From positions 12,116 through 76,115 of the forward strand of contig JBAZQK010000006.1 in assembly GCA_041645215.1 (NCBI GenBank): a stretch of 64,000 bases of DNA, written 5' to 3'. The stretch is from Patescibacteria group bacterium. GTDB taxonomy: Bacteria > Patescibacteriota > Patescibacteriia > Veblenbacterales > UBA10138. Numbering within the stretch: position 1 is the first letter of the stretch; each line of letters begins with the position of its first letter. The notes beneath the pieces are model-generated. The model was not told the origin of the DNA, searched no databases, and was given only the letters and a program-made list of their open reading frames with translations. A program made the position numbers and the translations under genes. Below, in pieces: positions 10,115 through 40,205 of this stretch.

Positions 10115-10927
10115 ATGGAAAAATTACCACTGCCTCAAAAAATTGTTACGGCGGCGAGCGATAATAATCACGCTAAGATAGTTATTGGTCCGTGTTACCC
10201 CGGTTATGGTACGACTTTGGGTAATTCTTTGCGTCGGGTTTTACTGTCGTCTTTGCCCGGGGCGGCGGTGGTAGCCGTTCGCATTACCGGGGCTGACCAT
10301 GAATTTTCCACGCTAGCGGGAGTCAAAGATGATGTGGTTGATATTTTATTAAATATTAAGCAGTTGCGCTTGCGAGTGTTTAGTCAGGAACTTGTTAGTT
10401 TTAATCTTAAGGTGGCCGGGGAAAAAGTTGTTACCGCGGCTGACATTACACCTAACAGCGCGGTTGAAATTTTAAATAAGGATTTGGTTATAGCCAACCT
10501 GACGGACAAGAAGGCAGTTTTAGAAATTGAATTTTTTGCCGAGCAGGGCCGGGGTTATGTGCCAGTTGAAAATCAGGAAGATGTCAAACACAATATTGGT
10601 GAAATTGCGATTGATGCTTTTTATACGCCGGTTCGGAGGGTTGGTTATTCGGTTGAAAACGTTCGGGTTGGCCAAATGACCAATTACGATAAATTGACAT
10701 TGGACGTGGAAACTGACGGCAGTTTAACTCCGTTGGAGGCGGTACAGCAGGCTAGCCGTATTTTAATTGATCATTTTGCTTTTATCGCCGGCGACAAAAC
10801 AGTTGATATAGCGGAGTCAGCTGCGGTTGACACTGTGCCGCTAGCACCGGCGCCAATTGAAGTTAATAAATTGAGCGTACCGGAAAGGGTGGTTAAAAAG
10901 CGCGGGCGTCCCAGAAAGGAAGTTTAA
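10115..10927 (+). CDS. rpoA: DNA-directed RNA polymerase alpha subunit (N-terminal domain only; C-terminus is an AT-hook-like KKRGRPRKEV)
   Basis: MEKLPLPQKIV...GPCYPGYGTTLGNSLRRVLLSSLPGAAV matches the alpha-NTD. Only ~40 aa follow the NTD, and no HhH alpha-CTD is recognisable. Start taken at M15 of the tracked ORF. Confidence 0.8.
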   Translation: MEKLPLPQKIVTAASDNNHAKIVIGPCYPGYGTTLGNSLRRVLLSSLPGAAVVAVRITGADHEFSTLAGVKDDVVDILLNIKQLRLRVFSQELVSFNLKVAGEKVVTAADITPNSAVEILNKDLVIANLTDKKAVLEIEFFAEQGRGYVPVENQEDVKHNIGEIAIDAFYTPVRRVGYSVENVRVGQMTNYDKLTLDVETDGSLTPLEAVQQASRILIDHFAFIAGDKTVDIAESAAVDTVPLAPAPIEVNKLSVPERVVKKRGRPRKEV

Positions 10928-10930
10928 ATT

Positions 10931-11509
10931 ATGCCCGGTAATACAACTTTGCTAGCGCTCACTTCAACCACCTTTTATTATAAAATTATGTTTTGTTTAG
11001 AATTATTTAATCAATTACCTTTGTTTAACCACGCTCGCGCTTAAGGCGGTTGAGCAAAGTTGATATACCGGGTATGCCCAGTAATACAACTTGGCTAGCG
11101 CTCGCCCAGCACCAGAGCCCCGAAGGAGAACAAGTTCCCTACGGGGCAGGCAAGCACGGTACTGGGCATCGCTCCAACGGTATATTTCCCGTCGGGCAGC
11201 GAGCGGCCAACAATCCCAATCTTTTGACTATTCTTGGTGCTTGGGCTCGCCTTAACCACTCCGTATCATAACTTTATGTCTTATCTAAAATTATTTAATC
11301 ATTTATTCTTGTCTAGCCACGCTCGCGCTGGGGGTGGTTTAGCCAAGTTGATATACTGGGTATGCCCAGTAACAAAACTTCACTATACTCGCAAAGGCAC
11401 TTAAGATTAATCCCCATTTATAAAACTATGATTTTAGTTTCAGCTAATTTAATTTCTCTTTCACTCGGCTCGTATAAAGTGCCTAGTGAAGTTATTGTTA
11501 CTGGGTATG
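10931..11509 (+). repeat. Second tandem array of family-1 ~140-bp hairpin repeats (three units, one with insertion, one variant)
   Basis: Unit A is 10931-11076. Unit B is 11077-11364, with a ~135-bp GC-rich insertion at 11107-11240. Variant unit C is 11365-11509 (cccagtaacaaaacttcact...agtgaagttattgttactgggtatg). The array begins directly after the rpoA stop and ends in the rplQ ATG. Confidence 0.8.
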
Positions 11510-11857
11510 AGACATCGTAAAGTTGGCAGAAAATTGGATCGCACCGCCGCCCCTCGTCTGGCCCTTATCAAAGGCTTGGCTAATAGTTTGGTTTTGTACG
11601 AAAGTATCAAAACCACTGTCGCCAAGGCCAAAACAGTCAGGTCGTACGTTGAGAAATTAGTTACAATTGCCAAGAAACCAACTTTGGCTAATCGCCGCCT
11701 AATTACCAGTCGCCTGACAACCGCTGGCGCGGTTAGGAAGTTATTGGAAGTTTATGGACCCCGTTATAATGAGCGCCCCGGCGGATATACCAGAATAGTT
11801 AAATTGGCGCGCCGCCAGGGTGACCGCGCCCGCATGGCGCAAATCGCCTTTATCTAG
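11507..11857 (+). CDS. rplQ: 50S ribosomal protein L17
   Basis: MRHRKVGRKLDRTAAPRLAL... is the L17 N-terminus. The ATG is supplied by the repeat terminus ...ttactgggtATG; the tracked ORF 11486 start lies within the repeat. Confidence 0.85.
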   Translation: MRHRKVGRKLDRTAAPRLALIKGLANSLVLYESIKTTVAKAKTVRSYVEKLVTIAKKPTLANRRLITSRLTTAGAVRKLLEVYGPRYNERPGGYTRIVKLARRQGDRARMAQIAFI

Positions 11858-11863
11858 TTTATT

Positions 11864-12238
11864 ATGGAAAAGAAAATATTCCAACATACAGTCACAATTG
11901 ACGCTACGGGATTACCCTATGGACGTTTGGCCAGTCAGGTAGCCAGTCATTTGCGCGGTAAAAATTTGGTGACTTTTAAGCCTAATGCCGCGCCTGACCT
12001 AAAAGTGATAGTAACAAACCTTAGTAAGGTTAAGTTTAGCGGTGATAAATTGACCACTAAAATATATTACAGTTTTTCCGGTTATCCGGGCGGTTTAAAG
12101 AAAGCTACCTTGGGCGAAAAATGGGCCAAGCAACCGGAGCGATTGTTTCGTTGGACAGTTAAGCATATGCTGCCCAAAAATCGTTTGAGCGATCGGATGA
12201 TTAAAAATTTGCAAGTTTATCAAGGAACCGATAAATAA
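11864..12238 (+). CDS. rplM: 50S ribosomal protein L13
   Basis: TVTIDATGLPYGRLASQVASHLRGK...VKHMLPKNRL...LQVYQG. Confidence 0.9.
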   Translation: MEKKIFQHTVTIDATGLPYGRLASQVASHLRGKNLVTFKPNAAPDLKVIVTNLSKVKFSGDKLTTKIYYSFSGYPGGLKKATLGEKWAKQPERLFRWTVKHMLPKNRLSDRMIKNLQVYQGTDK

Positions 12239-18270: not shown

Positions 18271-19933
18271 ACTTAATTCAGCTAATCGGCTGTGGTTTTA
18301 CGCCAGCGGGTTAGTCTGGCTGTTGAGTTTGGATATTTTATCCTGGTTGGGCTGGGATTATCCCGTGGTCGGTTCTCTCATGGCTTTAACCATCGGCCTT
18401 GTTTGGTTTTATATCGCCAGTCGAAATATTACAATTGGCGTCGGTTGGTTGATTTTAGAATTGATAATTGGTTCATTTGGCCTCCTGTTTAATTTGAGCT
18501 TTGGCAGTACTACTATTTCGCTGCGGTTAATTCTTTTTTTATTCGCGCTCGGCTTAATAAATTGGCGATTATGGTTTAAGCGTGATTACGTATATTTGCT
18601 TAATCGTTCAGTTTTATGGTACGGCTTGGCTTTGCTGGGTATCGGTTGGGCGTTGATGGTGGCGTTGGCGCGCGGTAATGCGTGGGGCAGTATTTTTTTG
18701 GATTTAAACGGCTACCTTTATTTACTACTGTGGCCGCTGTTTGTTATTATGGCAGCCACGGATGAATCATGGCTGTCAACCGTAAAGAAATTTGTATACC
18801 TTGGTCTGGGGTGGTTGGGCTTGCGGACTATTATAATATTTTATCTTTACAGTCATTTTGACAGCAGTTATCTATGGCCGCTTTATCAGTGGTATCGAGA
18901 TTTAGGTTTGGGTGAAATAACTTACATTAGCGGTAATTATTTCCGGATTTTTTCGCAAAGTCAAATTTGGTCTTTGTTGGCGGCGGCCGCCGGATTTATT
19001 TATCTCGCGGCCGATAGCGGTATTAAAATGCTAAAAAATCGTAATTACCTGTTATATTTAATGATTTGGTTTAATCTGGTAATTGTCATTATAAGTTTGT
19101 CGCGAAGTTTTTGGTTGGGCGGTTTAACGGTTTGGTTATTAATCAGTCTGTGGCTAGTTGTTAAAAAATGGCAGCAAGCAATACGTTATGTAATAATTTC
19201 AGGGGTGATTATGTTATCAGCTATGGGGGCTGTGCGTTTTATCAACCAGGTTCCGTGGCCGGCGGTGCCGGCGGCGAGCGGTAATGCCCTGGCCAGTCGT
19301 TTTAGCAGTAATGAAGCGGCCGGGCAGAGTCGCTGGAATTTGCTTAAGCCATTGGTGAACCAAATTAACACCGCTCGACTGGTGGGATATGGCTTGGGCG
19401 CGGATATAACTTATCACTCGCTTGATCCTCGTGTCGTGGCGTCCACGGCGGGCGGAATAGGCGTAGTAACAGTGACGGCGTTTGAGTGGGGCTATTTAGA
19501 TATGTGGCTTAAGTTTGGCTTAGTCGGTTTATTAGCTTTGTTGGGATTTTTACTGCAGGGCTGGGGGAGGAATTTTTTTAAGTGGTGGCGGGCCGTTGAT
19601 GTCAAAGCCAGCTGGTTTATTCATCCCTGGCTGGCCTTGCTGGTGGTAAATATTACCACGCCATATTTAAATCATCCTTTAGGTTTAGGCGCTATAATGT
19701 TGATATTGGCGGTGGTTTTACAAGGAGATGGTTCCAAAACCCTTTTCGTGGCGAAAGCTATGATTTTTGAACGAGACAAGGAAGATGAGCAAAATGCCCG
19801 GAAACGTAGCAGTAGCTACGATGAGGACATTTTGGGAAATCTGACGCAGTCGCAGTCAAAAAACAGAGATTGCAGCAGAAATAGGGTTTTGGAACCATCT
19901 CAAGATCAGGCCGGTAAAAAATATGTTAATTAA
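18230..19933 (+). CDS. O-antigen polymerase/ligase-like polytopic membrane protein (Wzy/WaaL-like); C-terminal ~65 aa encoded by a MITE copy
   Basis: At least 10 TM helices. The C-terminus ...TLFVAKAMIFERDKEDEQ...VLEPSQDQAGKKYVN is encoded by the family-2 repeat at 19727-19899. Confidence 0.55.
   Translation: MSSKFFSLNFPTRKLNSANRLWFYASGLVWLLSLDILSWLGWDYPVVGSLMALTIGLVWFYIASRNITIGVGWLILELIIGSFGLLFNLSFGSTTISLRLILFLFALGLINWRLWFKRDYVYLLNRSVLWYGLALLGIGWALMVALARGNAWGSIFLDLNGYLYLLLWPLFVIMAATDESWLSTVKKFVYLGLGWLGLRTIIIFYLYSHFDSSYLWPLYQWYRDLGLGEITYISGNYFRIFSQSQIWSLLAAAAGFIYLAADSGIKMLKNRNYLLYLMIWFNLVIVIISLSRSFWLGGLTVWLLISLWLVVKKWQQAIRYVIISGVIMLSAMGAVRFINQVPWPAVPAASGNALASRFSSNEAAGQSRWNLLKPLVNQINTARLVGYGLGADITYHSLDPRVVASTAGGIGVVTVTAFEWGYLDMWLKFGLVGLLALLGFLLQGWGRNFFKWWRAVDVKASWFIHPWLALLVVNITTPYLNHPLGLGAIMLILAVVLQGDGSKTLFVAKAMIFERDKEDEQNARKRSSSYDEDILGNLTQSQSKNRDCSRNRVLEPSQDQAGKKYVN
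19727..19899 (+). mobile_element. MITE-like element family 2, copy 1 (perfect 14-bp TIR GATGGTTCCAAAAC / GTTTTGGAACCATC)
   Basis: Collinear homology (~70-75% identity over ~170 bp) to 46942-47112. This copy is embedded in the 3' end of CDS 18230..19933. Confidence 0.75.
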
Positions 19934-29455: not shown

Positions 29456-29689
29456 GTGTGGCGAGGTAGTATTTTGGCATCTTCCGCCACCAGCCCTAAT
29501 TTAGTACCAGCCATCAGGCAGGCGGCAACCATTGTAACAAATGAAGGCGGTTTGACCAGCTATGCCGCCATCGTGGCTAGAGAATTTAAGATTCCTTGCA
29601 TTGTGGAAACCAGAATAGGAACGCAAGTGTTTAAAGATGGTGATGCAGTGGAGGTTGATGCTAATAAGGGGATAGTTAGAAAGTTATGA
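29456..29689 (+). pseudogene. Orphan PEP-utilizing swivel-domain fragment with catalytic His replaced by Tyr (GGLTSYAAI)
   Basis: The 77-aa ORF aligns to the C-terminal ~60 aa of the downstream paralogs (AIVTNEGGxTxHAAIVAREL.IPCI...GD.VEVDAN.G). It has Y where the phosphohistidine normally sits and lacks any N-terminal domain. Confidence 0.45.
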
Positions 29690-31182
29690 CAAAAAAGATT
29701 ACTCTACCACCCAAAGTCATAAAATTAGTCAAGGGTAATGAGTGGTACCACCAGCGGTTTGATGGTGCACCGATGTATATGTATTGCGTAGCTGAAGCGG
29801 AAATTAAACCGGAAGCGAGAAAGCCTAAAGGCACCGAGGCTAAAATGCGCGTGTCTTTTTTTATGCCCAACGGCAGAGGGGATTGGTATTTGGATATGGC
29901 TGATGTTAAACGCGGCGCGCAAATAATTATTGATTTGGCTAAAAAAGATGCACTTATAAGCCGGAAATTACTAAAGGCCTGGCGTAAGGACGAAGAATTG
30001 TTTGAAAAGTTTTTCTACCGGTTTGAAGCCTCATCATTAGGAAAATTAATGGATAAAGATTTATTGGCTTTATATAAGCAATATTATAAATTGTTTGTTA
30101 ACCGTTTTACATCTTCGGCCATAATAGACCATTTTGCTCTAGGTACGGATGAATACATAGCTAATATATTAAGAAAGGAAATGGGAAAAATTAAAAAGGA
30201 GTCGGAGTTTACCGAAATATTCAGTATCGCCACAGCACCGACCAAGCAGTCTTTTATTAATGAATCAGAGATGAAGCTGTTGGCATTAGCTTTAAAACCA
30301 CATCTTTCGGCAAAAGACTTGCAAAACTATCAAAAAGATTATTTCTGGATAAAAAATAATTATTACCAGGCTAGAAACCTGACTGTAACTGATTTTAAGA
30401 AAGAAATAAGTATTTGGAAAAAGTCTGGGGCTAATTTAACAGCCAAATATTGGCAATTGAAAAATGCGTCCCGGATGAATGCTAGAAAAAAAAATATATT
30501 GTTTAAAAAATATAAATTATCAAAATTGCTAAGAACTTTGTTAAAAATTTCTGACGATTTTACTTGGTGGCAGGATGAACGTAAAAAATCCACTTATTTA
30601 AATATTCACATTGGTAGTTGTATTTTGGGAGAGATGGCTAAGCGACGTGGGTACAACCCGGAAGTTATGAAATATTTACTGCCTGTTGAAGTTGGTTCAA
30701 TGTTTTTAAAAGGTATACCGTCGGCGCAAGAATTAAAAAATCGGCAAAAGGGTTGTGCTTTTGTGGTTTGGCATGGCGGTTTTTATGTGGCTACCGGTAA
30801 ACAAGTAACAGTATTACGAAACTTAATGTTTTCTTCTAAAAATAAAGATGAAGTCAAGGATTTAAGAGGTTTAACCGCGTCAGTCGGTAGGGTAATCGGC
30901 CCAGTCAAGGTGGTTAACTCAGTTAGAGAGATTAGTAAGGTAAAAAAAGGAGATATATTAGTGGCTGTTATGACCCGACCCGATTATATTGTAGGTATTA
31001 AAAAAGCCGCCGCGATTGTTACCAATGAAGGTGGAATCACCTGCCATGCCGCCATTGTGGCGCGCGAACTTGGTATTCCGTGTATAATCGCTACCAAAAT
31101 CGCCACCGAAGTCTTGCATGATGGCGATTTAGTGGAAGTCAACGCTAATCATGGGGTGGTTACTGTGTTAAAGAGAAAATAA
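29686..31182 (+). CDS. PEP-utilizing-enzyme swivel phosphohistidine-domain protein, paralog 1 (N-terminal ~390-aa domain of unknown function; no ATP-grasp domain)
   Basis: C-terminus AAIVTNEGGITCHAAIVARELGIPCIIATKIATEVLHDGDLVEVNANHG matches the PEP-utilizers mobile domain with conserved His. The N-terminal domain carries the family motifs YFWIKNNYY and WWQDERK. Confidence 0.75.
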   Translation: MTKKITLPPKVIKLVKGNEWYHQRFDGAPMYMYCVAEAEIKPEARKPKGTEAKMRVSFFMPNGRGDWYLDMADVKRGAQIIIDLAKKDALISRKLLKAWRKDEELFEKFFYRFEASSLGKLMDKDLLALYKQYYKLFVNRFTSSAIIDHFALGTDEYIANILRKEMGKIKKESEFTEIFSIATAPTKQSFINESEMKLLALALKPHLSAKDLQNYQKDYFWIKNNYYQARNLTVTDFKKEISIWKKSGANLTAKYWQLKNASRMNARKKNILFKKYKLSKLLRTLLKISDDFTWWQDERKKSTYLNIHIGSCILGEMAKRRGYNPEVMKYLLPVEVGSMFLKGIPSAQELKNRQKGCAFVVWHGGFYVATGKQVTVLRNLMFSSKNKDEVKDLRGLTASVGRVIGPVKVVNSVREISKVKKGDILVAVMTRPDYIVGIKKAAAIVTNEGGITCHAAIVARELGIPCIIATKIATEVLHDGDLVEVNANHGVVTVLKRK

Positions 31183-31185
31183 TTT

Positions 31186-32607
31186 ATGACAAAATGGCAT
31201 TGGTATATGCGTGGCACTATTTATCCGCATCGGGCCGATATTGGACAATTGGGTATTTTTAAGTATGGAAAATATAATTTAATTCCCATAACATCAGATT
31301 TGTATATTAACGAAGGTTCTAGAATGTGGTGGGCGTGGGATGTAGCTCAAATCACAAAACTAGGTAATGCTATTTTAAAACAGTGTAAGACTAAATCTGG
31401 CGTTGCCAAACATGTAAATAAGCTAATTGCCTTATTGAGCAAGGCCATAGAGTCAGCCGATATATTTAAACAGGGAGATTTAACGAAATTAAGTGATAAA
31501 GAATTAGCCGGACAGTATCAATTACTTTACAAAGATAATTTGGAAACCCACGGCATTTTAAATGAAGATGTAGATGCGTTTGATGTGGTGTTTGATAATT
31601 TTTTGCAAACAGAATTAAGACGCTATGTTAATTTAGCTGGGGATAAATTTATTTCCGTCTATAAAGATTTGTCAACACCTTGCCATACTTCATATTTGCA
31701 ACAGCAAAACTATGATACAGCTAAGCTATATTTAAACTCAAAAGGTCAAAGCGAAACGGTTGATATTTTACATAATGAATATTGGTGGACAAGCATGGGT
31801 TGGGAAAGTATGAAGCCGCACAGTAAAGGTTATTTTATGCATCAGGTAAAAACAATGAACCGAGTTTTGGCAACAAGGATTATTAATGATTATAAAAAAC
31901 AAGCCGCTTTAGTTGCCAAACAGCGCCGGAGACTGCTTCGCCAATATAAGTTACCCAGGCAATTTAGTCGCTGGCTATGGGTTTTGGATAAGTATGCCTA
32001 TTTACATGACTGCAGAAAAGAAATGCAGGTTAAAACCATGTATGCTTATCATTTGATTTTATTAGAGACTGCTAAAAGGTTAAAGATTAAAGAATCGGAT
32101 TTGGAGTGGTTATTTCATAATGAGGTCGCGGGTTTATTAAAAGGTAAGAGACTTAATAAAAAACTGATAGCTGATAGAAAAATATCAGTGACCTCCCAGG
32201 TAACATCTAAAAAAATAATTATAAATGAAGGGAATAAAGCTCATCGGATAAAGATTAAAAGTCTTAATTTAGATAGAAAAAATATTACTTTAGTTAAGGG
32301 TTTGGCTGTAACTGCTGGTTTAGTACATGGACGTGCCTTGGTTTGTCAAGGGGCCAAAGAGGCCATTAGCAAAGTTAAACAAGGTGATATTTTGATATGC
32401 CCCATGACCTTACCGGATTATTTGCCAGCCATGAAAATGGCTAAAGCCATCGTGACAGATGAAGGTGGTTTAACCTGCCATGCTGCCATAATCGCGCGTG
32501 AGCTGGGTAAGGTTTGTATAGTTGGCACAAAAGAGGCCACCCGGGTATTTAAGACCGGCGATTTGGTAGAGGTTGATGCTAATAGAGGCGTTATTCGTAA
32601 GTTATAG
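31186..32607 (+). CDS. PEP-utilizing swivel-domain protein, paralog 2
   Basis: KAIVTDEGGLTCHAAIIARELGKVCIVGTKEATRVFKTGDLVEVDANRG. N-terminal domain homologous to paralog 1. Confidence 0.75.
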   Translation: MTKWHWYMRGTIYPHRADIGQLGIFKYGKYNLIPITSDLYINEGSRMWWAWDVAQITKLGNAILKQCKTKSGVAKHVNKLIALLSKAIESADIFKQGDLTKLSDKELAGQYQLLYKDNLETHGILNEDVDAFDVVFDNFLQTELRRYVNLAGDKFISVYKDLSTPCHTSYLQQQNYDTAKLYLNSKGQSETVDILHNEYWWTSMGWESMKPHSKGYFMHQVKTMNRVLATRIINDYKKQAALVAKQRRRLLRQYKLPRQFSRWLWVLDKYAYLHDCRKEMQVKTMYAYHLILLETAKRLKIKESDLEWLFHNEVAGLLKGKRLNKKLIADRKISVTSQVTSKKIIINEGNKAHRIKIKSLNLDRKNITLVKGLAVTAGLVHGRALVCQGAKEAISKVKQGDILICPMTLPDYLPAMKMAKAIVTDEGGLTCHAAIIARELGKVCIVGTKEATRVFKTGDLVEVDANRGVIRKL

Positions 32608-32610
32608 TTT

Positions 32611-33255
32611 ATGGAGAATAAAACTTTTTATCTTTGGGATTTGGCTGATACCATTTTTATTGAAAAATGGAACGCTGAATTATCCGGCGTGCCGTCTTTT
32701 AATGCTTATGTGGAGTCTTTGGGATATGATTTAAAAACTATCAGTCCTTTAGATTATGAATTATGTTATGAAAAACCGTATCGTGATGGTTTATATGATT
32801 TATCAATTGCTGATGGATTTAAAGAAGTTCTAACTTGGACGAAAAACAATGGCGTTTTTACTACTGGTAACAAAGAGCAAATTAATTGGCGAGCTGAACA
32901 GTTGTTAAGAAAATATGGGTTTGGCATTCGTGACTTTTTGAAAGAGATATATAGCACTTTTGATTATAGTAACACCAATGTTAAAACCGAAGCTATGTTA
33001 GTAGATTTAATAGGTAAAAAATTTAAGCAAGGGCTTGGGATTATAGTTTATACAGACGATAGAGAGGCTAATTGCAGGTTTTTTATTAGTGCAGCTGAAA
33101 AGTGTCAAAATAATGGGGTGAGGGTTGAATATCGGGTGTATAATTTAGGTAATGATGATAGTAAGTTAGAAAAATTGTCAGATAACTATTATAAAATTGG
33201 CGATCTATATCAATTGAAAGATAATGAAGAAAATTTATTAAAGCCCAATGATTAA
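32611..33255 (+). CDS. HAD-like hydrolase (atypical motif I DxxD), putative phosphatase
   Basis: YLWDLADTIF (motif I-like), VFTTGN (motif II-like), IIVYTDDREAN (motif IV-like). Shares the atypical DxxD(T/V) with 39597..40205. Confidence 0.45.
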   Translation: MENKTFYLWDLADTIFIEKWNAELSGVPSFNAYVESLGYDLKTISPLDYELCYEKPYRDGLYDLSIADGFKEVLTWTKNNGVFTTGNKEQINWRAEQLLRKYGFGIRDFLKEIYSTFDYSNTNVKTEAMLVDLIGKKFKQGLGIIVYTDDREANCRFFISAAEKCQNNGVRVEYRVYNLGNDDSKLEKLSDNYYKIGDLYQLKDNEENLLKPND

Positions 33256-34690
33256 TCCTAATAAAAATTTGTGGCGGTGGGGACCAATAGACGGCCGGCC
33301 GATATATCCGGACCCGTGGTACGACGGTATGACTGTTAATATGAAGGCATTTTCACCGAGTTGGCCAAGTAGTTATTCTTTATATAAAAAAGACAGGTAT
33401 TCTTATGTTTGTGAATATGAGCCTTTATATAAAAACGCGGAGAAAATATTCGTTAAGTATATATTGAATGAAGCCAATTTTAAAAGAATATACAGAAAAT
33501 GGCGCAATATTGTAAAGAGGTTAGTCAACCTAAATGCTAAAATGTCCCCAAGTAGTCTCAGGTCGTTAAATGATTTAGAACTCTATAAAACAATCAATTT
33601 ATGGTATAAAGTTTATAGTTATGAATTTTGGGGTGTTGGGTTAGTACCGGAAATTGCTAATTTTGGCGGGGAATCATTGCTTAGAAATATACTTCGGAAA
33701 AAATCTGTCGTTATGGGGGCGGAGGTTAGTTTAATGGAAAAGTTGTCGGCGCCTGATAAATTTTCGTTTTATACGCAAGAAGAAATAGATCTATTAAAAC
33801 TTCGTAAGATAAAAGGAAAGCCATTAAATCAGTCTTTGGTTAAGCATCAGCAAAAATATTTTTGGATACTGAATAGTTATCGCCAGACTAAAGTTTTATC
33901 AGTGGACTATTTTGCTAAGTACTTAAAAAAGTTTTCTAATGTACATGCTAGAGACAGAATAAAGGCATTAAAAAAACAAATAAAAATAGTTAAATTTATT
34001 AAAGCAAAGTTAGTACGTCAATATTCACTAGGTAAGGACGCATTGATGATATCTAACAAATTAGCTTGTTGTATTTGGTGGCAGGACAACAGAAAATCGT
34101 ATATATTTCAAACTAATCATGTTATAGATGTAATAGTTAATGAATTATCTCGTCGCTATGATATTAGTAAAAGCGATTTACATTATTATGTTTTTAAAGA
34201 TATTTTAAAATTAATTAAAACTGGAAAAAAATTATCAATTAAAGAACTAAAACAAAGACAAAGTTATTTTGCTGTGGTTTGGGATAGGCAGAAAGGGACT
34301 ATGTATGTATCCGGAGGTAAAGCTAAAAAGTTATATAATTTGTATCAAATAAAACCGAATGTTAAGTCTATAAAGCAAATTAGGGGTGAGGCTGTTAGCG
34401 CTGGAGTTGTTAAGGGTAAGGTGAGAGTTATTTTGTCAGCCCGTGAGGTCAATAAATTACGACCTGGAGAAATATTAATAACCACTATGACTTCGCCCGA
34501 TTTTATTGTGGCTATGCGTAAAGCTGCGGCCGTAGTAACCGACGTTGGTGGTATTACCAGCCACGCCGCTATAGTCTCGCGTGAACTTAGAATACCCTGC
34601 ATAGTGGGTACCAGAATCGCCACTAAAGTTTTGAGAAATGCTGATTTGGTGGAAGTTGATGCCAATAAAGGAATCGTTAAAAAATTATAA
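33248..34690 (+). CDS. PEP-utilizing swivel-domain protein, paralog 3
   Basis: AAVVTDVGGITSHAAIVSRELRIPCIVGTRIATKVLRNADLVEVDANKG; QQKYFWILNSYRQ and CIWWQDNRK motifs. Confidence 0.75.
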   Translation: MINPNKNLWRWGPIDGRPIYPDPWYDGMTVNMKAFSPSWPSSYSLYKKDRYSYVCEYEPLYKNAEKIFVKYILNEANFKRIYRKWRNIVKRLVNLNAKMSPSSLRSLNDLELYKTINLWYKVYSYEFWGVGLVPEIANFGGESLLRNILRKKSVVMGAEVSLMEKLSAPDKFSFYTQEEIDLLKLRKIKGKPLNQSLVKHQQKYFWILNSYRQTKVLSVDYFAKYLKKFSNVHARDRIKALKKQIKIVKFIKAKLVRQYSLGKDALMISNKLACCIWWQDNRKSYIFQTNHVIDVIVNELSRRYDISKSDLHYYVFKDILKLIKTGKKLSIKELKQRQSYFAVVWDRQKGTMYVSGGKAKKLYNLYQIKPNVKSIKQIRGEAVSAGVVKGKVRVILSAREVNKLRPGEILITTMTSPDFIVAMRKAAAVVTDVGGITSHAAIVSRELRIPCIVGTRIATKVLRNADLVEVDANKGIVKKL

Positions 34691-34694
34691 TTAT

Positions 34695-34724
34695 CCGCTC
34701 CCATGCTCTAGAGCATGGGAGCGG
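34695..34724. promoter_or_regulatory. Perfect 30-bp palindrome CCGCTCCCATGCTCTAGAGCATGGGAGCGG (putative operator, copy 1)
   Basis: Perfect dyad with a central CTCTAGAG. It lies between the paralog-3 stop and the AGGAGG SD of the YerC-like gene. Confidence 0.55.
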
Positions 34725-34741
34725 AGGAGGAAATAAGAATT

Positions 34742-35053
34742 ATGCCACGATATAATGAAAAAAGAATACCATATCAGACTCAAGAAAAACTTCTTGATAT
34801 GTTTTGTGATATTCTTAAAAACATGAAAAAACGTCAGGACGTTAAAGATTTTTTAAAAGATTTATTAAATCGTCAAGAACGAGTAATGTTGGTACGCCGA
34901 TTACTGATAGCTGATATGTTACTTAGAAAGTTATCTTATCGTGAAATTACAAATAAATTACGGTGTGGCTCTTCAACTATAGCGCGAGTAGAGCGTTGGT
35001 TAAATTTTGGTCGAGGTGGTTACAAACTAGCTATTAATCATAAAGTAAAATAA
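34742..35053 (+). CDS. TrpR-like/YerC-YecD family DNA-binding protein
   Basis: ...REITNKLRCGSSTIARVERWLNFGRGGYKLAI matches the YerC/YecD (Trp repressor-like) HTH. AGGAGG lies 12 nt upstream of ATG 34742; the tracked ORF starts at 34715, inside the palindrome. Confidence 0.65.
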   Translation: MPRYNEKRIPYQTQEKLLDMFCDILKNMKKRQDVKDFLKDLLNRQERVMLVRRLLIADMLLRKLSYREITNKLRCGSSTIARVERWLNFGRGGYKLAINHKVK

Positions 35054-35057
35054 TTAG

Positions 35058-35085
35058 TGCTCCCATGCTCTAGAGCATGGGAGCA
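35058..35085. promoter_or_regulatory. Second copy of the palindrome (TGCTCCCATGCTCTAGAGCATGGGAGCA)
   Basis: 28-bp perfect dyad sharing the 24-bp core CTCCCATGCTCTAGAGCATGGGAG. It sits immediately upstream of paralog 4. Confidence 0.55.
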
Positions 35086-35094
35086 AAGGTCTGT

Positions 35095-36615
35095 ATGATA
35101 ATTAGTGAATTAACTAAAGAAATAAAGCGGGAAACTTGGTGGAGCGAAGAGTCACCAGGCACGCCCATGTTTTCTTTGTGGATACAGCAGTTCGTACGGC
35201 AATCTAAGTATTGGCATCCTAAATTGCCTAATATTATATTGGTATTTTTTAAAAATGATTTTTTATATGAAGAAACTCCGGAAAAGCAAAAACTGCAAAT
35301 CTGGAATTATGTTTTAGAACAGTATATTAAATATCCACAAATTCAACTGCGTCATTATAAGAAGTGGAAAGCCGTGTCTGAGAATTTAGTTAAAGAAAGG
35401 GAGTGGTTTCTAAAACACAAACATCATTTAAACAGCCAAGAATTGGCTGCGTCGTTTGCCAAAGTCAGCCAATTGATTAATGAGCACTGGCGGATTACTT
35501 GGGTGCAGGAAAGCGCTGATATTTTTACCACCTATGAGTTGCCGCAATTAATTCAAAAAGAAAATCCTAATTTATCGCTGGAACAGGCGACAGGTATTGC
35601 CATAATTTTATGCGCACCTGAATTTTTAAGTTTTATGGAAGAACAGCACACAGAACTTTTAAAAATAGCTATTTTGTACTATAGAAAAATTAAAAATGCT
35701 AAGAGGATTACTGGGGTTGATAAAAGGTTACGTGAAACCATAAATGGATTCTCCCAAAAGTATATTTGGTTATTGTCTAATTATAAAGAAGCTAGGCCTT
35801 TTGGTATTGGGCAAGTTTGGCAACAATTACGCTATGAATGCCAAAATAAAACTTTGTCTAAATTAAAAAAAGATTTAAAGAGTGTTAGAAGCAAAGTAGT
35901 TCGTTTAAAAAGACAAAAAAATAAATTATATCGGGATTTAAGTATTTCCCCCCGGCTAAGAAAAGCTTTTAATCTGCTTACTTTTTGGGCAACATGGATG
36001 GATGAGCGTAAACAAACAGCGCTTGTAGGTAATTGGTATTTGGAATTTTATGCCCGAGAAGTGGCTAAGTGTTTAGGTATTAATATTTGGAATATTAAAT
36101 ATTTTACTGCTGCTGAATTACATCAAGCTTTATCAAAAGGTAAGTTGCCAAATAAACTAGAATTAAAAAAGCGTCGTCGGTTTTGTGTGTTTGCGATTAC
36201 AAAACAAGGCAGCAAGATAGTGGAAAAGATTTATACCGGGGGAAACGCGACTAAATTGTGGTCATTAATATTTACTAAACCAACAAGCAGCCTAATAAAA
36301 GGACAAGTAGCTAGTGCGCCGATAAGTAAAATGAGTGGCAAGGTTCAGATAGTTTTAGACCCGCATCGCGATAAGTTTACCAACGGTCGCATATTGGTTA
36401 CCACTATGACCCGACCAGACTTTGTGCCTTTAATTCGGCGAGCTAGTGCTATAATTACTGATGAAGGCGGTATTACCTGCCACGCCGCCATTATTTCCCG
36501 CGAATTAGGTATTCCTTGTATAATTGGCACTAAAGTAGCTAGTAAGATTTTAAAGAATGGCAATAAAGTAGAATTGGATTTGGCATCAGGTGGGGTTAAA
36601 ATTTATAAAAAATAA
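35095..36615 (+). CDS. PEP-utilizing swivel-domain protein, paralog 4
   Basis: SAIITDEGGITCHAAIISRELGIPCIIGTKVASKILKNGNKVELDLASGG; FWATWMDERK motif. The start may be 35077 instead (inside the palindrome). Confidence 0.7.
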   Translation: MIISELTKEIKRETWWSEESPGTPMFSLWIQQFVRQSKYWHPKLPNIILVFFKNDFLYEETPEKQKLQIWNYVLEQYIKYPQIQLRHYKKWKAVSENLVKEREWFLKHKHHLNSQELAASFAKVSQLINEHWRITWVQESADIFTTYELPQLIQKENPNLSLEQATGIAIILCAPEFLSFMEEQHTELLKIAILYYRKIKNAKRITGVDKRLRETINGFSQKYIWLLSNYKEARPFGIGQVWQQLRYECQNKTLSKLKKDLKSVRSKVVRLKRQKNKLYRDLSISPRLRKAFNLLTFWATWMDERKQTALVGNWYLEFYAREVAKCLGINIWNIKYFTAAELHQALSKGKLPNKLELKKRRRFCVFAITKQGSKIVEKIYTGGNATKLWSLIFTKPTSSLIKGQVASAPISKMSGKVQIVLDPHRDKFTNGRILVTTMTRPDFVPLIRRASAIITDEGGITCHAAIISRELGIPCIIGTKVASKILKNGNKVELDLASGGVKIYKK

Positions 36616-36630
36616 GTTATATAGATAAAT

Positions 36631-38094
36631 ATGAAACTTTATTATATTCAAAGAAAATCCAGCATGTCTTCAATCTTATGGCTTTTGGGTTGTGGTTTAG
36701 GCATGACTCATTACCCAGTTAAGCAAGTTTATGCTGGGTATGATTTGGGTAACACTATTTGGCTGGGTCGTCGTGAGGAAGGGTTTCTGTGCGGCGATAA
36801 ATCTACTCATATTGATAAATTGGTTAGTTCATTTCAAAATTATGTTTTAAAGAATCCACGGCATGTATTTAATATAAAAAAAATATTTTTAAACAGGTCA
36901 CGTAAATTAGTTGGTTTAGTCAAACATTTAGCCAGTTTTGATTATACCGAGGCCAGCAACAGTCAATTGTATGATGATTATAAAAGAGTAGTGGATAGTT
37001 ATAAGGAAGTTTATACTTACGGTGAGCCGTTAGCCATTGCCTTGGGAAATTTTTCCGATAGGATAAAAAAACATTTTATACCCCAGGGCATGACCGATGC
37101 TGATTATGAAATTTTGCTCTTACCCCAGGAACTTTCTTTTGTGCAAAGAGAGAGGCTGGATTTATTGGAAATAGCTTGTCTGGTTAAAAATGGAAAAGTG
37201 GATAAAAAGATTAAACAATTATTACAAAGTCATGTGGCTAAGTATACTTGGTTGCCATATGATTATGGCGTTACCAGTTATAAAATTGACCATTTTATTA
37301 AAGAGCTGAAAAAACTGGTTAACAAGGGGCGGCGGCAAATTTTAGCAAATTATCGCCACCTTGCTAACTATTCTCGAAATTTACAAAAGCAGCAAAATAA
37401 CATAGCGGCTAAATATAAATTTAATAACAAGCAGCAAAGTTTAATTGAAATTGTTAGAACCACTTTTTATTTGGTTGATTATAAAAAAGAATTATTTACG
37501 CAACTTCATTGGTATTCAGAAAGATTATTTATAGAAGTAAGCCGCCGACTAAAAACGCCCCAGCATTTAGTAAGGTATATGTTGCCGTATGAAGTGAGTA
37601 TGTGTTTGCTAAAGGGAGTACCCGTAAAAAAACTGCAAATCCAATCGCGTTACAATAATTGTGTAATTACTATTAAAAAATCAGGAAGGGTGAACGTTAT
37701 TGATGGTAATAAAGCTAAATTGATAATTGATAACTTTATCAGTTCACATAAAAAGGGTGAAAAGCGGGATTATTTATCCGGGCGCGTTGGTAATTCAGGA
37801 AGCGCGCGTGGTTTGGTAAGAGTAATTATGGATGCCAGAAAAATAGATACTTTTAAACATGGGGAAATATTGGTAGCACCCATGACTTCACCCGATTATA
37901 TACTGGCCATACGCAAAGCGGCAGCGATAGTGACGGATGAAGGCGGTACAACCTGCCACGCCGCCATTGTCTCGCGAGAACTTAATATACCCTGCGTTAT
38001 TGCCACCAAGAAAGCCACCCAAGTCTTTAAGACTGGTGATATGGTGGAAGTAGATGCTACGCGTGGTATAGTAAGATTATTAAAATCATCTTAA
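36631..38094 (+). CDS. PEP-utilizing swivel-domain protein, paralog 5
   Basis: AAIVTDEGGTTCHAAIVSRELNIPCVIATKKATQVFKTGDMVEVDATRG. Confidence 0.75.
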   Translation: MKLYYIQRKSSMSSILWLLGCGLGMTHYPVKQVYAGYDLGNTIWLGRREEGFLCGDKSTHIDKLVSSFQNYVLKNPRHVFNIKKIFLNRSRKLVGLVKHLASFDYTEASNSQLYDDYKRVVDSYKEVYTYGEPLAIALGNFSDRIKKHFIPQGMTDADYEILLLPQELSFVQRERLDLLEIACLVKNGKVDKKIKQLLQSHVAKYTWLPYDYGVTSYKIDHFIKELKKLVNKGRRQILANYRHLANYSRNLQKQQNNIAAKYKFNNKQQSLIEIVRTTFYLVDYKKELFTQLHWYSERLFIEVSRRLKTPQHLVRYMLPYEVSMCLLKGVPVKKLQIQSRYNNCVITIKKSGRVNVIDGNKAKLIIDNFISSHKKGEKRDYLSGRVGNSGSARGLVRVIMDARKIDTFKHGEILVAPMTSPDYILAIRKAAAIVTDEGGTTCHAAIVSRELNIPCVIATKKATQVFKTGDMVEVDATRGIVRLLKSS

Positions 38095-38112
38095 TTATTA
38101 ATTGTTATTTAT

Positions 38113-39600: not shown

Positions 39601-40205
39601 TCAAAGCAATTTTCTTTGATTCCGGTGACGTTATAGTAAGGGAAGGATTCAATCCCGGTATAGTTGAATATGAAAAAAAATATAGTTTGCTGCCAGGATC
39701 TCTATACAAATCTGCACACGACAGGCAATATTGGAAAGATTTTACCTTGGGTAATATATCCGAAAATGAATACTTTGCGGATGTAGCAGACGATTACAAA
39801 AAAGCAAAAATTGATACCACAGATTTTAAAAAGATTATCCAGGATAATTTTAAATTAAATGAAGAATTGTTAGATTTTTTAATGACAATTAAAAATAAAT
39901 TTATTTTAGGAGTAATCTCTAATCATCCCAAGGAATTTTTTGAATGGTGCAGACAATATTTTGGTTGGGATAAGATTTTTACCGTTTATGCGGTATCTGG
40001 TGATTTGCATGTTAGAAAACCCGATAAGAGAATATTTGATTATGCTGTTAAAAAAGCTGGTGTGGCAGGTGGCGAATGTATCTATGTTGACAATCGCTCG
40101 GACAGAATAGAGGGTGCACAGTTAGCTGGTATGCAGGTAATTATTTATCAGAATATCAATCAATTAAAAACTGATCTATCTAATTTTATTAATGTAACCG
40201 ATTAA
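39597..40205 (+). CDS. HAD-superfamily hydrolase (putative phosphatase)
   Basis: IFFDSGDVIV (motif I region), LGVISN (II), VRKPDKRIFDYA (III), CIYVDNRSDRIEGAQLAGM (IV). ATGA overlap with paralog 6. Confidence 0.6.
   Translation: MIKAIFFDSGDVIVREGFNPGIVEYEKKYSLLPGSLYKSAHDRQYWKDFTLGNISENEYFADVADDYKKAKIDTTDFKKIIQDNFKLNEELLDFLMTIKNKFILGVISNHPKEFFEWCRQYFGWDKIFTVYAVSGDLHVRKPDKRIFDYAVKKAGVAGGECIYVDNRSDRIEGAQLAGMQVIIYQNINQLKTDLSNFINVTD

What the first reader, a model, noticed from the sequence alone, without database searches (positions are those of the whole stretch)
10931..11509. Second array of the same hairpin repeats between rpoA and rplQ, again donating the start codon
Three units of the family-1 element fill the rpoA-rplQ intergenic space. 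One carries a 135-bp GC-rich nested insert; one is a sequence variant. The array begins 3 nt after the rpoA stop, and its last three bases are the L17 start codon (…ttactgggtATG AGA CAT CGT = MRHR…). Start-codon donation recurs at two independent loci (rpmJ and rplQ). This suggests the element preferentially inserts at, or recreates, a gene-start context. The nested insertions at 8238-8348 and 11107-11240 are related to each other (both begin gctagcgctcgcccag[tc]accagagcc), indicating a composite element.
Basis: seen in the sequence. Interest (0 to 1): 0.65.

Follow-up and report, generated by a model that had tools for sequence, protein, structure and literature searches.

The report
Miniature transposons stacked on start codon
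The 579 bases between rpoA and rplQ are three copies of a tiny hairpin-shaped jumping element, inserted one after another exactly at the L17 start codon. Their full-length relatives in other Patescibacteria are about 310 bp long, encode only a 100-residue GIY-YIG nuclease and borrow the host gene's start codon, a kind of mobile element I could not find described.

Summary
Window 10930-11509 reads TATG-B1-TATG-B2-TATG-B3-TATG. It fills the space from 3 nt after the rpoA stop to the rplQ ATG (11507).

The "donated" start codon is the downstream copy of a 4-bp target-site duplication.
- Of 69 complete elements with the same ends (CCCRGTAATACAACTT...AAGTTGATATACTGGG) in Patescibacteria genomes, 55 have identical 4-nt flanks, and 42 of these flanks are TATG.
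- About 57 sit exactly on a gene start, and about 55 of those point the same way as the gene.
- All 26 L17 orthologous loci examined have a gap of -4 to 72 nt, no array, and the same ATG. The ATG therefore pre-existed.

The nested inserts are a second, related family flanked by CTCG/CTCG. A 99%-identical strain lacks exactly one of them plus one CTCG (145 nt).

The 300-320-bp relatives with the same ends encode a ~100-aa GIY-YIG nuclease of the UPF0213/Slx1 type.
- Its ATG is the upstream duplicate of the host start codon.
- Its stop lies in the right end, 10 nt before the restored host ATG.
- dN/dS is about 0.1.

The window units are therefore ORF-less derivatives (MITEs). That the nuclease performs the transposition is inferred, not shown. 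Six literature searches found no description.

The parts
10115..10927 (+). rpoA (RNA polymerase alpha); stop codon at 10925-10927
   Evidence: ORF and translation. Pfam RNA_pol_L/RNA_pol_A_bac on the identical gene in L119.
10930..10933 (+). TATG, the upstream copy of the duplicated target. This is the original position of the rplQ start context.
   Evidence: The same junction occurs in Kerfeldbacteria locus L084.
10934..11072 (+). Unit B1, a 139-nt ORF-less hairpin element (MITE) with ends CCCGGTAATACAACTT / AAGTTGATATACCGGG. The A>G and T>C changes compensate each other.
11073..11076 (+). TATG shared between B1 and B2
11077..11360 (+). Unit B2, a family-1 MITE (139 nt once the nested element is removed). 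It is 93% identical to units A1/A3 of the other array.
11105..11245 (+). Nested family-2 element, 141 nt, with ends CCCAGCACCAGAGCC...TTCTTGGTGCTTGGG. It is flanked by CTCG at 11101-11104 and 11246-11249. It is absent, together with one CTCG (145 nt in all), from strain contig L120.
11361..11364 (+). TATG shared between B2 and B3
11365..11505 (+). Unit B3, a 141-nt variant subfamily with ends CCCAGTAACAAAACTT / AAGTTATTGTTACTGGG. It is 92% identical to the unit next to rplQ in Kerfeldbacteria L084.
11506..11509 (+). TATG, the downstream copy of the duplicated target. It contains the rplQ start codon (11507-11509).
11507..11857 (+). rplQ (ribosomal protein L17), with the conserved N-terminus MRHRK
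7773..7920 (+). Array A, unit A0: a degenerate B3-type unit that starts 4 nt after the infA stop (7766-7768). Its left flank is GATT.
7925..8062 (+). Array A, unit A1 (TATG at 7921-24 and 8063-66)
8067..8205 (+). Array A, unit A2 (TATG at 8063-66 and 8206-09). It is absent from contig L119.
8210..8461 (+). Array A, unit A3. Its host unit is 99% identical to A1. It is followed by TATG at 8462-65, which contains the rpmJ ATG at 8463.
8238..8347 (+). Nested family-2 element in A3, 110 nt, flanked by CTCG at 8234-37 and 8348-51
2598..2768 (+). A further member of the same superfamily: a 171-nt hairpin, CCCCGTTACACCCC...GGGGTGTAACGGGG, flanked by TAAA/TAAA. It carries a nested 65-nt mini-hairpin at 2661-2725, flanked by TTCA/TTCA. 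It is intergenic and not at a start codon.

Best explanation

How the array was built:
- Each insertion cut the target with a 4-nt stagger and duplicated it.
- The preferred target is TATG, that is, a start codon with T at -1.
- An element that lands on a start codon leaves one ATG in front of itself and restores the host gene's ATG behind itself.
- Each insertion also creates two fresh TATG targets. Later insertions therefore pile up into head-to-tail arrays that share single TATGs.

The parent elements, found in other Patescibacteria but not in this window, have the same roughly 20-bp ends and are 300-320 bp long. They consist of nothing but a ~100-aa GIY-YIG nuclease gene.
- Its ATG is the upstream duplicate of the host start codon.
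- Codons 2-6 (PSNTT) are the left end.
- Its TGA lies in the right end, 10 nt before the restored host ATG.

Inferences:
- The parent is expressed from the host gene's own transcription and translation-initiation signals. The host gene is then translated by termination-reinitiation or by direct initiation beside the hairpin.
- The GIY-YIG nuclease, whose fold is closest to the structure-specific nuclease Slx1, is the enzyme that mobilises both the parents and the MITEs, recognising the paired ends.

Shown here: the ends, the duplications, the start-codon position and orientation, the polymorphism, the coding parents and purifying selection.

Inferred: the catalysis by GIY-YIG, the cut geometry and the translational coupling.
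For: (1) Target-site duplication. Of 69 complete elements in genome loci, 55 have identical 4-nt flanks and 8 differ at one base. About 0.3 would be expected to match by chance. Thirteen of the identical pairs are not TATG, so the flank is not a fixed part of the element.

(2) Position.
- In at least 55 of 69 elements the right-hand copy is the start of a long ORF.
- Only 27% of random ATGs in the same loci open an ORF of at least 60 codons.
- The two CATA cases sit on start codons of genes on the opposite strand.

(3) Empty sites.
- All 26 L17 orthologous loci examined have an rpoA-rplQ gap of -4 to 72 nt, the same ATG and no array.
- Strain contig L120 (99.2% identical) lacks exactly 145 nt, which equals the nested element plus one CTCG.
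- L119 lacks unit A2.
- The related Kerfeldbacteria locus L084 has an extra array at the rplM start that the window lacks.

(4) Separate insertions rather than local duplication.
- B2 is 93% identical to A1/A3, in the other array.
- B1's best match is A2, at 87%.
- B3 is 92% identical to a unit in another species but only about 70% to its neighbours.

(5) Coding parents.
- Eleven elements carry the same ends, (N)ATG duplications and an intact GIY-YIG ORF that spans the whole element.
- Pfam PF01541 scores E = 5e-15.
- At least 524 clusters (90% identity) exist. About 95% of the 120 inspected begin MP(S/R)NTTS and end FGxGS, which are the residues encoded by the ends.
- dN/dS is 0.08-0.15 with saturated synonymous sites, while the 16-nt ends stay identical.
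- Residues 1-7 and 100-102 are disordered in the model.

(6) Fold. The nearest structures are UPF0213 BH0048 and then Slx1, ahead of UvrC and I-TevI.

(7) Pairing of the ends matters.
- Compensated variants occur: CCCAGT/ACTGGG, CCCGGT/ACCGGG and CCCCGT/ACGGGG.
- The stem always extends 2-7 bp beyond the conserved 16 nt, with 12 different sequences.
- Five of 20 consensus pairs show double changes.

(8) Coupling.
- 13 of 38 MITEs end their upstream-ATG reading frame within 30 nt of the host ATG, and 9 of these use the TGA in the right end.
- Only 1 of 38 does so when the elements are flipped in silico.

(9) No + strand terminator-like site lies in the arrays. No Rfam match appears even at E = 1.
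Against: - No GIY-YIG copy lies in the 64-kb window, so the source of any mobilising activity in this genome is unseen.
- No GIY-YIG enzyme is known to carry out strand transfer. A 4-bp duplication is the classical signature of DDE transposases, one of which could be encoded elsewhere.
- The GIY-YIG ORFs often have Met or Val at position 9, so they might start inside the element rather than at the host ATG.
- ORF-less MITEs show the same strong co-orientation with genes although they need no expression. The expression argument alone does not explain this.
- Twenty-five of 38 MITEs stop translation far upstream of the host ATG.
- All the data are metagenome assemblies. The copy-number difference in L119 could be an assembly collapse.
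- My sample of loci was chosen with the left-end 16-mer, which fixes that part of the picture.
Confidence: 0.8

Rival explanations
1. The units are genuine MITEs with 4-bp duplications, but an unidentified conventional (for example DDE) transposase encoded elsewhere moves them. On this view the small GIY-YIG gene between the same ends is cargo or an accessory nuclease, for example one that promotes homing or repair, and not the transposase.
For: - 4-bp duplications and terminal inverted repeats are typical of DDE families (established knowledge of the IS5, IS701 and IS1380 families).
- No GIY-YIG nuclease is known to join DNA strands.
- There is no GIY-YIG copy in the window.
Against: - The ORF fills the whole 300-320-bp element, and its first and last codons are the ends themselves.
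- Among the 210 loci fetched up to that point, no pair of these ends lies more than 650 bp apart.
- The GIY-YIG gene is under strong purifying selection at many unrelated insertion sites.
- The nearest fold is a structure-specific nuclease, which fits ends that must pair.
Confidence: 0.15
2. The repeats are a host cis-regulatory RNA of the ribosomal-protein operon, duplicated in place. Candidates are a processing or stabilising hairpin, or an autoregulatory leader for L17 and L36.
For: - The units fold into stable hairpins with compensatory changes.
- They lie only in the r-protein operon within this window and on the sense strand.
- They are certainly co-transcribed, with no terminator-like site.
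Against: - The same ends flank elements at the starts of dozens of unrelated genes in many phyla (dnaB, DUF72, AbiEii, uvrB-like and others), each with its own 4-bp duplication.
- All 26 orthologous loci examined lack them.
- Presence/absence varies between strains.
- Relatives encode a nuclease.
- No Rfam match was found.
Confidence: 0.03
3. The array is a minisatellite produced by local tandem duplication or unequal crossing-over of a single ancestral insertion, not by repeated insertion.
For: - A1 and the host unit of A3 are 99% identical.
- The copy number of array A differs between samples (L119 lacks A2). Unequal recombination produces such differences easily.
Against: - In array B the three units belong to different lineages. 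B2 is nearest to array A at 93%, B3 is nearest to another species' unit at 92%, and B1 versus B2 is below about 85%.
- Every junction is a single clean TATG, as expected from insertion into a duplicated target.
Confidence: 0.1
4. The units are IS200/IS605-type single-strand 'peel-and-paste' derivatives (PATE/REP-like), which insert 3' of a fixed tetranucleotide without any duplication.
For: - The elements are hairpin-forming.
- Strand and orientation bias is strong.
- A tetranucleotide target lies next to the left end.
- Eight elements have a non-matching left flank with TATG-like sequence on the right.
Against: - Left and right flanks co-vary for 13 non-TATG tetranucleotides. This requires duplication of the target.
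- No Y1 (HUH) transposase or TnpB was seen with these ends.
- The ends pair with each other rather than forming separate subterminal hairpins.
Confidence: 0.03

Closest known systems
Bacterial MITEs such as Neisseria Correia/NEMIS elements, pneumococcal RUP and cyanobacterial Nezha
   Same: - Size of 100-300 bp with no ORF.
- Terminal inverted repeats that let the transcript fold into a hairpin.
- Short target duplication.
- Many copies.
- Co-transcribed with neighbouring genes, with nested and tandem insertions.
   Different: - Known MITEs derive from DDE (IS630, IS5, IS1 and others) or Y1 insertion sequences, and they land in intergenic DNA in either orientation.
- This family lands on the start codon itself, almost always co-oriented with the gene.
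- Its coding relatives carry only a GIY-YIG nuclease.
Free-standing and intron-borne GIY-YIG homing endonuclease genes (I-TevI, Seg proteins of phage T4)
   Same: A selfish small gene encoding a GIY-YIG nuclease that spreads between genomes.
   Different: - Homing endonucleases have an added DNA-binding domain (about 250 aa in total) and cut one long cognate site.
- They are copied by homologous repair, and they have no inverted-repeat ends and no target duplication.
- Here the protein is the bare ~100-aa catalytic domain, and the elements sit at many unrelated sites with 4-bp duplications.
- Fold search puts I-TevI well below Slx1.
Slx1 / UPF0213 (YhbQ, BH0048) structure-specific GIY-YIG nucleases
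   Same: These are the closest sequence match (1zg2, E = 4e-5) and the closest structural matches (Slx1 entries 6sei, 4xm5, 7cq*). The size matches that of the bacterial UPF0213 proteins.
   Different: UPF0213 and Slx1 are host repair genes and are not known to be mobile. The family here is bounded by inverted repeats that encode its own termini, and it is scattered over start codons.
Penelope-like retroelements
   Same: They are the only established transposable elements that use a GIY-YIG nuclease to cut the target, and that nuclease is also Slx1/UvrC-like.
   Different: They are eukaryotic and move through RNA with a reverse transcriptase. Nothing of that kind is present here.
Hairpin-bridged ('split') ribosome-binding sites of phage T4 genes 25 and 38, and translationally coupled operon genes
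   Same: A stable hairpin or a short upstream ORF lies between the upstream initiation context and the real AUG, yet the gene is still translated. In the parent elements the stop-to-start distance of 10 nt is typical of coupled genes.
   Different: Those are fixed host or phage regulatory devices. Here the hairpin or upstream ORF is a mobile insertion, and coupling is only inferred.
Rickettsia palindromic elements (RPE)
   Same: They are small palindromic mobile repeats in a reduced genome, tolerated in places where ordinary insertion sequences would be lethal.
   Different: RPEs insert in frame inside coding regions and are translated as part of the protein. No duplication or parent nuclease gene of this kind is known for them.

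Membership tests
MITE (non-autonomous inverted-repeat transposable element) | Terminal inverted repeats | tested here: met
   The ends are CCCRGTAATACAACTT / AAGTTGATATACYGGG in B1, B2 and A1-A3. B3 and A0 have the variant CCCAGTAACAAAACTT / AAGTTATTGTTACTGGG.
MITE (non-autonomous inverted-repeat transposable element) | Target-site duplication of fixed length | tested here: met
   The duplication is 4 bp. It is TATG at every junction of array B and at A1-A3, and CTCG for both nested elements. In other genomes 55 of 69 elements have identical flanks, 13 of them non-TATG.
MITE (non-autonomous inverted-repeat transposable element) | Small size with no transposase-sized ORF | tested here: met
   Units are 110-171 nt. 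Only short, non-conserved ORFs are present, and tblastn finds no similarity to the GIY-YIG protein.
MITE (non-autonomous inverted-repeat transposable element) | Multiple copies at unrelated sites | tested here: met
   There are two loci in the window. Single MAGs carry many distinct contigs with copies: H52-bin160_1 has 7, H14-bin029_1 has 7 or more, and Doudnabacteria 02_FULL_42_25 has 3.
MITE (non-autonomous inverted-repeat transposable element) | Evidence of mobility (filled versus empty sites) | tested here: met
   - L120 lacks exactly 145 nt, equal to the nested element plus one CTCG.
- All 26 orthologous loci examined have empty rplQ starts.
- L084 has an array at the rplM start that the window lacks.
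MITE (non-autonomous inverted-repeat transposable element) | A coding element with the same ends that could supply the enzyme | tested here: inconclusive
   Eleven elements of 300-320 bp with the same ends encode a GIY-YIG nuclease. None is in the window, and the enzyme's role is untested.
IS200/IS605-derived PATE / REP-type hairpin repeats | Insertion without target duplication next to a fixed tetranucleotide, with a Y1/HUH transposase partner | tested here: not met
   Flanks co-vary on both sides for 13 different non-TATG tetranucleotides. No Y1 gene was found with these ends in the 210 loci examined.
GIY-YIG homing endonuclease gene | Nuclease domain plus a DNA-binding domain, one long cognate site, spread by homologous repair, no inverted-repeat ends and no duplication | tested here: not met
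   - The protein is about 101 aa and consists of the catalytic domain only.
- The match to the NCBIfam group I intron endonuclease model scores 21.5 bits against a cut-off of 56.
- Inverted-repeat ends and 4-bp duplications are present at unrelated genes.
GIY-YIG nuclease superfamily (applies to the coding relatives, not to the window units) | Pfam PF01541 above its threshold, with conserved Tyr, Tyr, Arg and Glu | tested here: met
   PF01541 scores 56 bits against a cut-off of 22.6. Y15, Y26, R36, E39, E72 and others are invariant across 40 sequences.
Known structured RNA families (Rfam 15) | Covariance-model match | tested here: not met
   No match was found at the gathering threshold across the window, and none at E up to 1 across 10880-11560.

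The most novel reading that the evidence does not exclude
The 100-residue GIY-YIG nuclease is itself the transposase of a previously unrecognised class of prokaryotic mobile element.
- These would be the smallest autonomous DNA transposons, at about 310 bp.
- They have no promoter and no start codon of their own. They insert on a host start codon and are expressed as the first cistron of the host gene, and they hand the start codon back through the 4-bp duplication.
- Recognition would go through the paired (hairpin or cruciform) ends by an Slx1-like structure-specific nuclease, rather than through a DDE, HUH, serine or tyrosine enzyme.
- The window's arrays would be their non-autonomous offspring.
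Probability: 0.5. Interest if true: 0.92.

Novelty: new variant of a known kind. Interest (0 to 1): 0.8.

Why it matters
- If the inference holds, it adds a sixth kind of nuclease to the enzymes known to move DNA transposons. It would also define the lower size limit of an autonomous element: one bare catalytic domain between two 20-bp ends.
- It shows a way for a parasite to live in genomes with almost no intergenic DNA, the roughly 1-Mb Patescibacteria. The parasite sits on the start codon, takes the host's expression signals and restores the start codon by duplicating the target.
- It explains why hundreds of 'GIY-YIG nuclease family protein' or 'excinuclease ABC subunit C' annotations, and many 35-45-aa ORFs beginning MPSNTT, appear in these genomes. 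Most are elements, not host genes.
- It bears on assembly. Many of these proteins sit on contigs shorter than 2 kb.
- A small nuclease with a defined tetranucleotide target and structure-dependent recognition could be of practical interest.
- For this window specifically, it shows that an essential operon tolerates 0.6-0.7 kb of hairpins directly in front of rplQ and rpmJ.

Tried and rejected
- Rfam, at the gathering threshold on the whole window and at E up to 1 on the array: no match.
- Phage genome collection (blastn) and IMG/VR pattern scan: no match. There is therefore no sign of a viral vector.
- tblastn of the GIY-YIG protein against the window: nothing significant apart from the 6 residues encoded by the end.
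- Reading the units as genes for a conserved small peptide (MPSNTT...): rejected. The interiors are unrelated between families, and the nested insertions break the frame.
- IS200/IS605-type insertion with a fixed right-hand tetranucleotide: rejected because the flanks co-vary.
- A Shine-Dalgarno bridged across the hairpin as the way L17 is translated: not supported in this organism. Its genes show no SD enrichment (9 of 52 against a 13% background), and the AAGGAAG at the end of rpoA may be coincidental.
- A search for a longer element with these ends that could carry a conventional transposase: none found in 210 loci.
- Looking up the multi-contig GIY-YIG cluster P0089 in the hope of finding many insertion sites for one protein: it proved to be one locus seen in many samples.
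- Six literature searches found no description of such elements. Terms covered GIY-YIG with transposon, MITE, start codon, Patescibacteria, UPF0213, COG2827 and TATG. The library is incomplete, so this is absence of evidence only.
- About half of the 16-mer hits in genome contigs were chance matches or an unrelated conserved gene (Neobacillus, Bacteroidota and others) and were discarded.
Full report
OBSERVATION

The window carries the operon infA-rpmJ-rpsM-rpsK-rpsD-rpoA-rplQ-rplM-rpsI on the + strand. Between the rpoA stop (10925-27) and the rplQ ATG (11507) lie 579 nt. These consist of three head-to-tail units separated by single TATG tetranucleotides:
- TATG 10930-33
- B1 10934-11072
- TATG 11073-76
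- B2 11077-11360
- TATG 11361-64
- B3 11365-11505
- TATG 11506-09

A second array lies between infA and rpmJ (A0 7773-7920, A1 7925-8062, A2 8067-8205, A3 8210-8461). It ends in the same way on the rpmJ ATG at 8463.

The repeat is far beyond chance: 5 matches to a 24-mer against 0 in the shuffles. Within the 64 kb it is confined to these two places, always on the + strand.

Each unit folds into one long hairpin (z = -3.2 to -6.4). The array folds as three adjacent hairpins.

WHAT THE 'DONATED' START CODON IS

A scan of one genome per species for the left-end 16-mer CCCRGTAATACAACTT returned many Patescibacteria contigs. They included Doudna-, Kerfeld-, Azam-, Lipton-, Terry-, Yanofsky-, Nealson-, Moran- and Saccharibacteria. 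Unrelated chance hits were discarded.

In 69 cases the matching right end, AAGTTGATATACTGGG, lies 62-375 nt downstream.
- The four bases outside the left end equal the four bases outside the right end in 55 of 69 cases. They differ at one base in 8 more.
- The tetranucleotide is TATG in 42 cases.
- When it is something else (TGTG, CTTG, CACG, CATG, AATG, TATA, TATT, CATA, TAAA, TTTA, CAAG, CGAG, ATGA and others), it is the same on both sides.

That is a 4-bp target-site duplication, not a fixed part of the element. The ATG in front of L17 is therefore the downstream copy of the duplicated target, and the ATG at 10931 is the upstream copy.

Removing the array and one TATG leaves ...GAAGTTTAAATTATGAGACAT..., a 3-nt rpoA-rplQ gap. 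All 26 L17 orthologous loci examined from metagenomes have gaps of -4 to 72 nt. They carry the same ATG-(A/C)GN-CAY start and no array.

The coincidence of element end and start codon is nevertheless the direct footprint of the insertion.

START-CODON TARGETING

- In at least 55 of the 69 elements the right-hand duplicate opens a long ORF. By comparison, 27% of random ATGs in the same loci open an ORF of at least 60 codons.
- The two elements flanked by CATA (the reverse complement of TATG) sit on the start codons of opposite-strand genes, of 187 and 732 codons.
- About 57 of 69 elements are therefore on start codons, and about 55 of those are co-oriented with the gene.
- The seven mini-hairpins shorter than 100 nt are not on start codons.
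- In this window 39 of 52 long ORFs have T at -1, so TATG is the usual start context. The genes show no Shine-Dalgarno enrichment.
- All other r-protein genes of the operon also start with TATG but are unoccupied.

Stacking follows naturally. Each insertion leaves a TATG on both sides, and a later insertion into either one gives units that share a single TATG, as observed at every junction.

The array was not made by local duplication. B2 is closest to units of the other array (93%). B1 is closest to A2 (87%). B3 is closest to the unit that abuts rplQ in a Kerfeldbacteria genome (92%).

That genome (L084) has arrays at the same rpoA-rplQ and infA-rpmJ sites. It has a further one at the rplM start, which is empty in the window.

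THE NESTED INSERTS

The exact boundaries are 8238-8347 (110 nt) and 11105-11245 (141 nt).

Both begin CCCAGYACCAGAGCC and end YTCTTGGTGYYTGGG. Both fold back on themselves and are flanked by CTCG/CTCG. The same family sits inside family-1 units in other genomes, with TTCG/TTCG, TTCA/TTCA or CTCG/CTCG flanks.

A contig from another sample (L120) is 99.2% identical over 6 kb. It has the B2 unit without the insert. Exactly 145 nt are missing, equal to the 141-nt element plus one CTCG.

This is a second family of the same kind (ends CCCAG...CTGGG, 4-bp duplication) with a different target rule. It was mobile recently enough to be polymorphic between strains. It is not one half of a composite element.

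A third family with a nested fourth lies at 2598-2768. Its ends are CCCCGTTA...TAACGGGG, with TAAA/TAAA flanks, and the inner 65-nt hairpin has TTCA/TTCA flanks.

THE CODING RELATIVES

The 309-318-nt versions of the element are a single ORF from end to end. I first saw them in Doudnabacteria, Yanofskybacteria, Saccharibacteria and unclassified Patescibacteria, plus a 375-nt copy in Azambacteria interrupted by a 62-nt mini-element.
- The ATG is the upstream duplicate.
- CCC AGT AAT ACA ACT (the left end) encodes PSNTT.
- The stop is the TGA in GTTGATATACTGGG, 10 nt before the restored host ATG.

The protein is a GIY-YIG nuclease (PF01541, E = 5e-15). A search of 5.8 billion proteins found at least 524 clusters, nearly all 100-103 aa. 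They are annotated as 'GIY-YIG nuclease family protein' or, wrongly, as 'excinuclease ABC subunit C'. Of the 120 inspected, about 95% start MP(S/R/G)NTTS and end FGxGS.

Five further loci, chosen by protein rather than by DNA pattern, all show the same ends, a TATG duplication and, in four of the five, a host gene start directly behind (DUF72, AbiEii, and dnaB twice). One has both ends changed in a compensating way (CCCCGT...ACGGGG).

Selection pattern:
- Between copies, synonymous sites are saturated (pS 0.6-0.9), while pN is 0.15-0.29.
- dN/dS is 0.08-0.15 where it can be computed.
- The 16-nt ends remain identical.
- The protein is therefore kept functional, and the ends are constrained at the DNA level.

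Structure:
- In an AlphaFold model (pLDDT 79.5) the end-encoded residues 1-7 and 100-102 are disordered.
- The nearest solved structures are UPF0213 BH0048 and the nuclease domain of Slx1, a structure-specific endonuclease. These rank ahead of UvrC and I-TevI.

No such gene lies in the window. Among the 210 loci fetched up to that point, no pair of these ends lies more than 650 bp apart, so no longer version that could carry another transposase was seen.

HOW IT MOST LIKELY WORKS

Shown:
- Inverted-repeat ends and 4-bp duplications.
- A preference for TATG.
- Location on start codons in gene orientation.
- Nested and stacked insertions, and strain-level presence/absence.
- Coding relatives that consist only of a conserved nuclease gene.

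Inferred:
1. The nuclease is the mobilising enzyme for both the coding elements and the ORF-less ones.
2. It recognises the ends as a paired structure.
   - The two ends co-vary.
   - The stem always continues 2-7 bp beyond the conserved 16 nt, with 12 different sequences.
   - Five of 20 consensus pairs show double compensatory changes.
3. The coding element is expressed from the host gene's promoter and initiation context. The host gene is then translated by termination-reinitiation.
   - The three-base difference between the ends (AAT against ATA) is what creates the TGA.
   - 13 of 38 MITEs terminate the upstream-ATG frame within 30 nt of the host ATG. Nine of these use that TGA after an ORF that is open through the whole element.
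   - Only 1 of 38 does so when the elements are flipped in silico.

In the window the upstream-ATG frames end 29 nt before the next ATG for B1, 90 nt before it for B2, and 11 nt after the L17 ATG for B3. Coupling here is therefore at best partial. How L17 and L36 are initiated remains open.

Also open:
- Why ORF-less copies are as strictly co-oriented as coding ones.
- How a GIY-YIG domain could achieve strand joining.

RIVALS

- A conventional transposase acting in trans, with the nuclease as cargo, is the serious alternative (confidence 0.15).
- Local tandem duplication explains at most part of array A.
- A regulatory RNA reading and an IS200/IS605-type mechanism are contradicted by the duplications and the distribution.

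COMPARISON AND NOVELTY

The window features pass every structural test for MITEs. The new aspects are the target (the start codon itself, with the start codon given back by the duplication), the strict orientation, and the parent. The parent is a roughly 310-bp element carrying only an Slx1/UPF0213-like GIY-YIG domain, which borrows the host start codon.

No prokaryotic insertion-sequence family that I know of uses a GIY-YIG enzyme. The only transposable elements known to use one are the eukaryotic Penelope-like retroelements (my own knowledge). Six full-text searches found nothing comparable. The library is incomplete, so prior description cannot be excluded.

CAVEATS

- All sequences are metagenome assemblies. 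Repeat arrays are prone to collapse, so the missing A2 in L119 is weak evidence.
- The sample of elements was selected by one 16-mer.
- The source genome outside the 64 kb was not available.

Noticed in passing
window 2598-2768: A 171-nt hairpin element, CCCCGTTACACCCC...GGGGTGTAACGGGG, is flanked by TAAA/TAAA. A 65-nt mini-hairpin is nested at 2661-2725, with flanks TTCA/TTCA. The site is intergenic and not at a start codon. It looks like two further families of the same superfamily.
   Followed up: partly
L008 1889-2101; L045 3502-3738; L072 5051-5266 and 5510-5722; L005 3061-3306; L113 2398-2607: Other ~70-90-aa GIY-YIG mini-genes in Patescibacteria lie directly beside tRNA genes. They are bracketed by different inverted repeats (for example CCCCTCACTTGGAAAGGAT / ATCCTTTCCAAGTGAGGGG) or direct repeats. 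This suggests sister elements with other targets.
   Followed up: no
window 29686-43534: At least seven tandem paralogous genes of about 470-510 aa each end in a PEP-utilising enzyme mobile domain (PF00391, E = 1e-25 to 1e-27). Their N-terminal parts match no Pfam family.
   Followed up: partly
window 576-1457 (inside ORF 171-1739): Three 291-nt tandem repeats (75-80% identical) encode repeated ~97-aa modules of a 522-aa protein with an N-terminal signal-like segment.
   Followed up: no
window-wide (52 ORFs of at least 150 aa): The genes show no Shine-Dalgarno enrichment upstream of their starts (9 of 52 against a 13% background). Thirty-nine of 52 have T at position -1, so TATG is the standard start context in this organism.
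   Followed up: partly
L216 1501-1841 and L218 1501-1817: The dnaB start codon is occupied by a GIY-YIG element in two different organisms. The two nuclease copies differ from each other. This is either an ancient insertion or a recurrent target.
   Followed up: no
L084 6684-7097 against window 11857-11864: A related Kerfeldbacteria genome has a two-unit array at the rplM start codon. The window has an ordinary 6-nt rplQ-rplM gap at that place.
   Followed up: partly
L019 (Azambacteria JACQDT010000003) about 1335-1737: A GIY-YIG element is interrupted by a 62-nt mini-hairpin of the same family. The mini-hairpin is inserted in the opposite orientation with a CAAG/CTTG duplication, and it breaks the nuclease ORF.
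   Followed up: partly
window 34697-34722 and 35059-35084: Two copies of a perfect 26-nt palindrome, GCTCCCATGCTCTAGAGCATGGGAGC, lie 362 nt apart around a short intergenic or small-ORF region.
   Followed up: no
window 19737-19812 and 46951-47026: A 76-nt sequence is repeated at 72% identity, 27 kb apart (AAACCCTTTTCGTGGCGAAAGC...GAAACGTAGCAG). It has not been examined.
   Followed up: no
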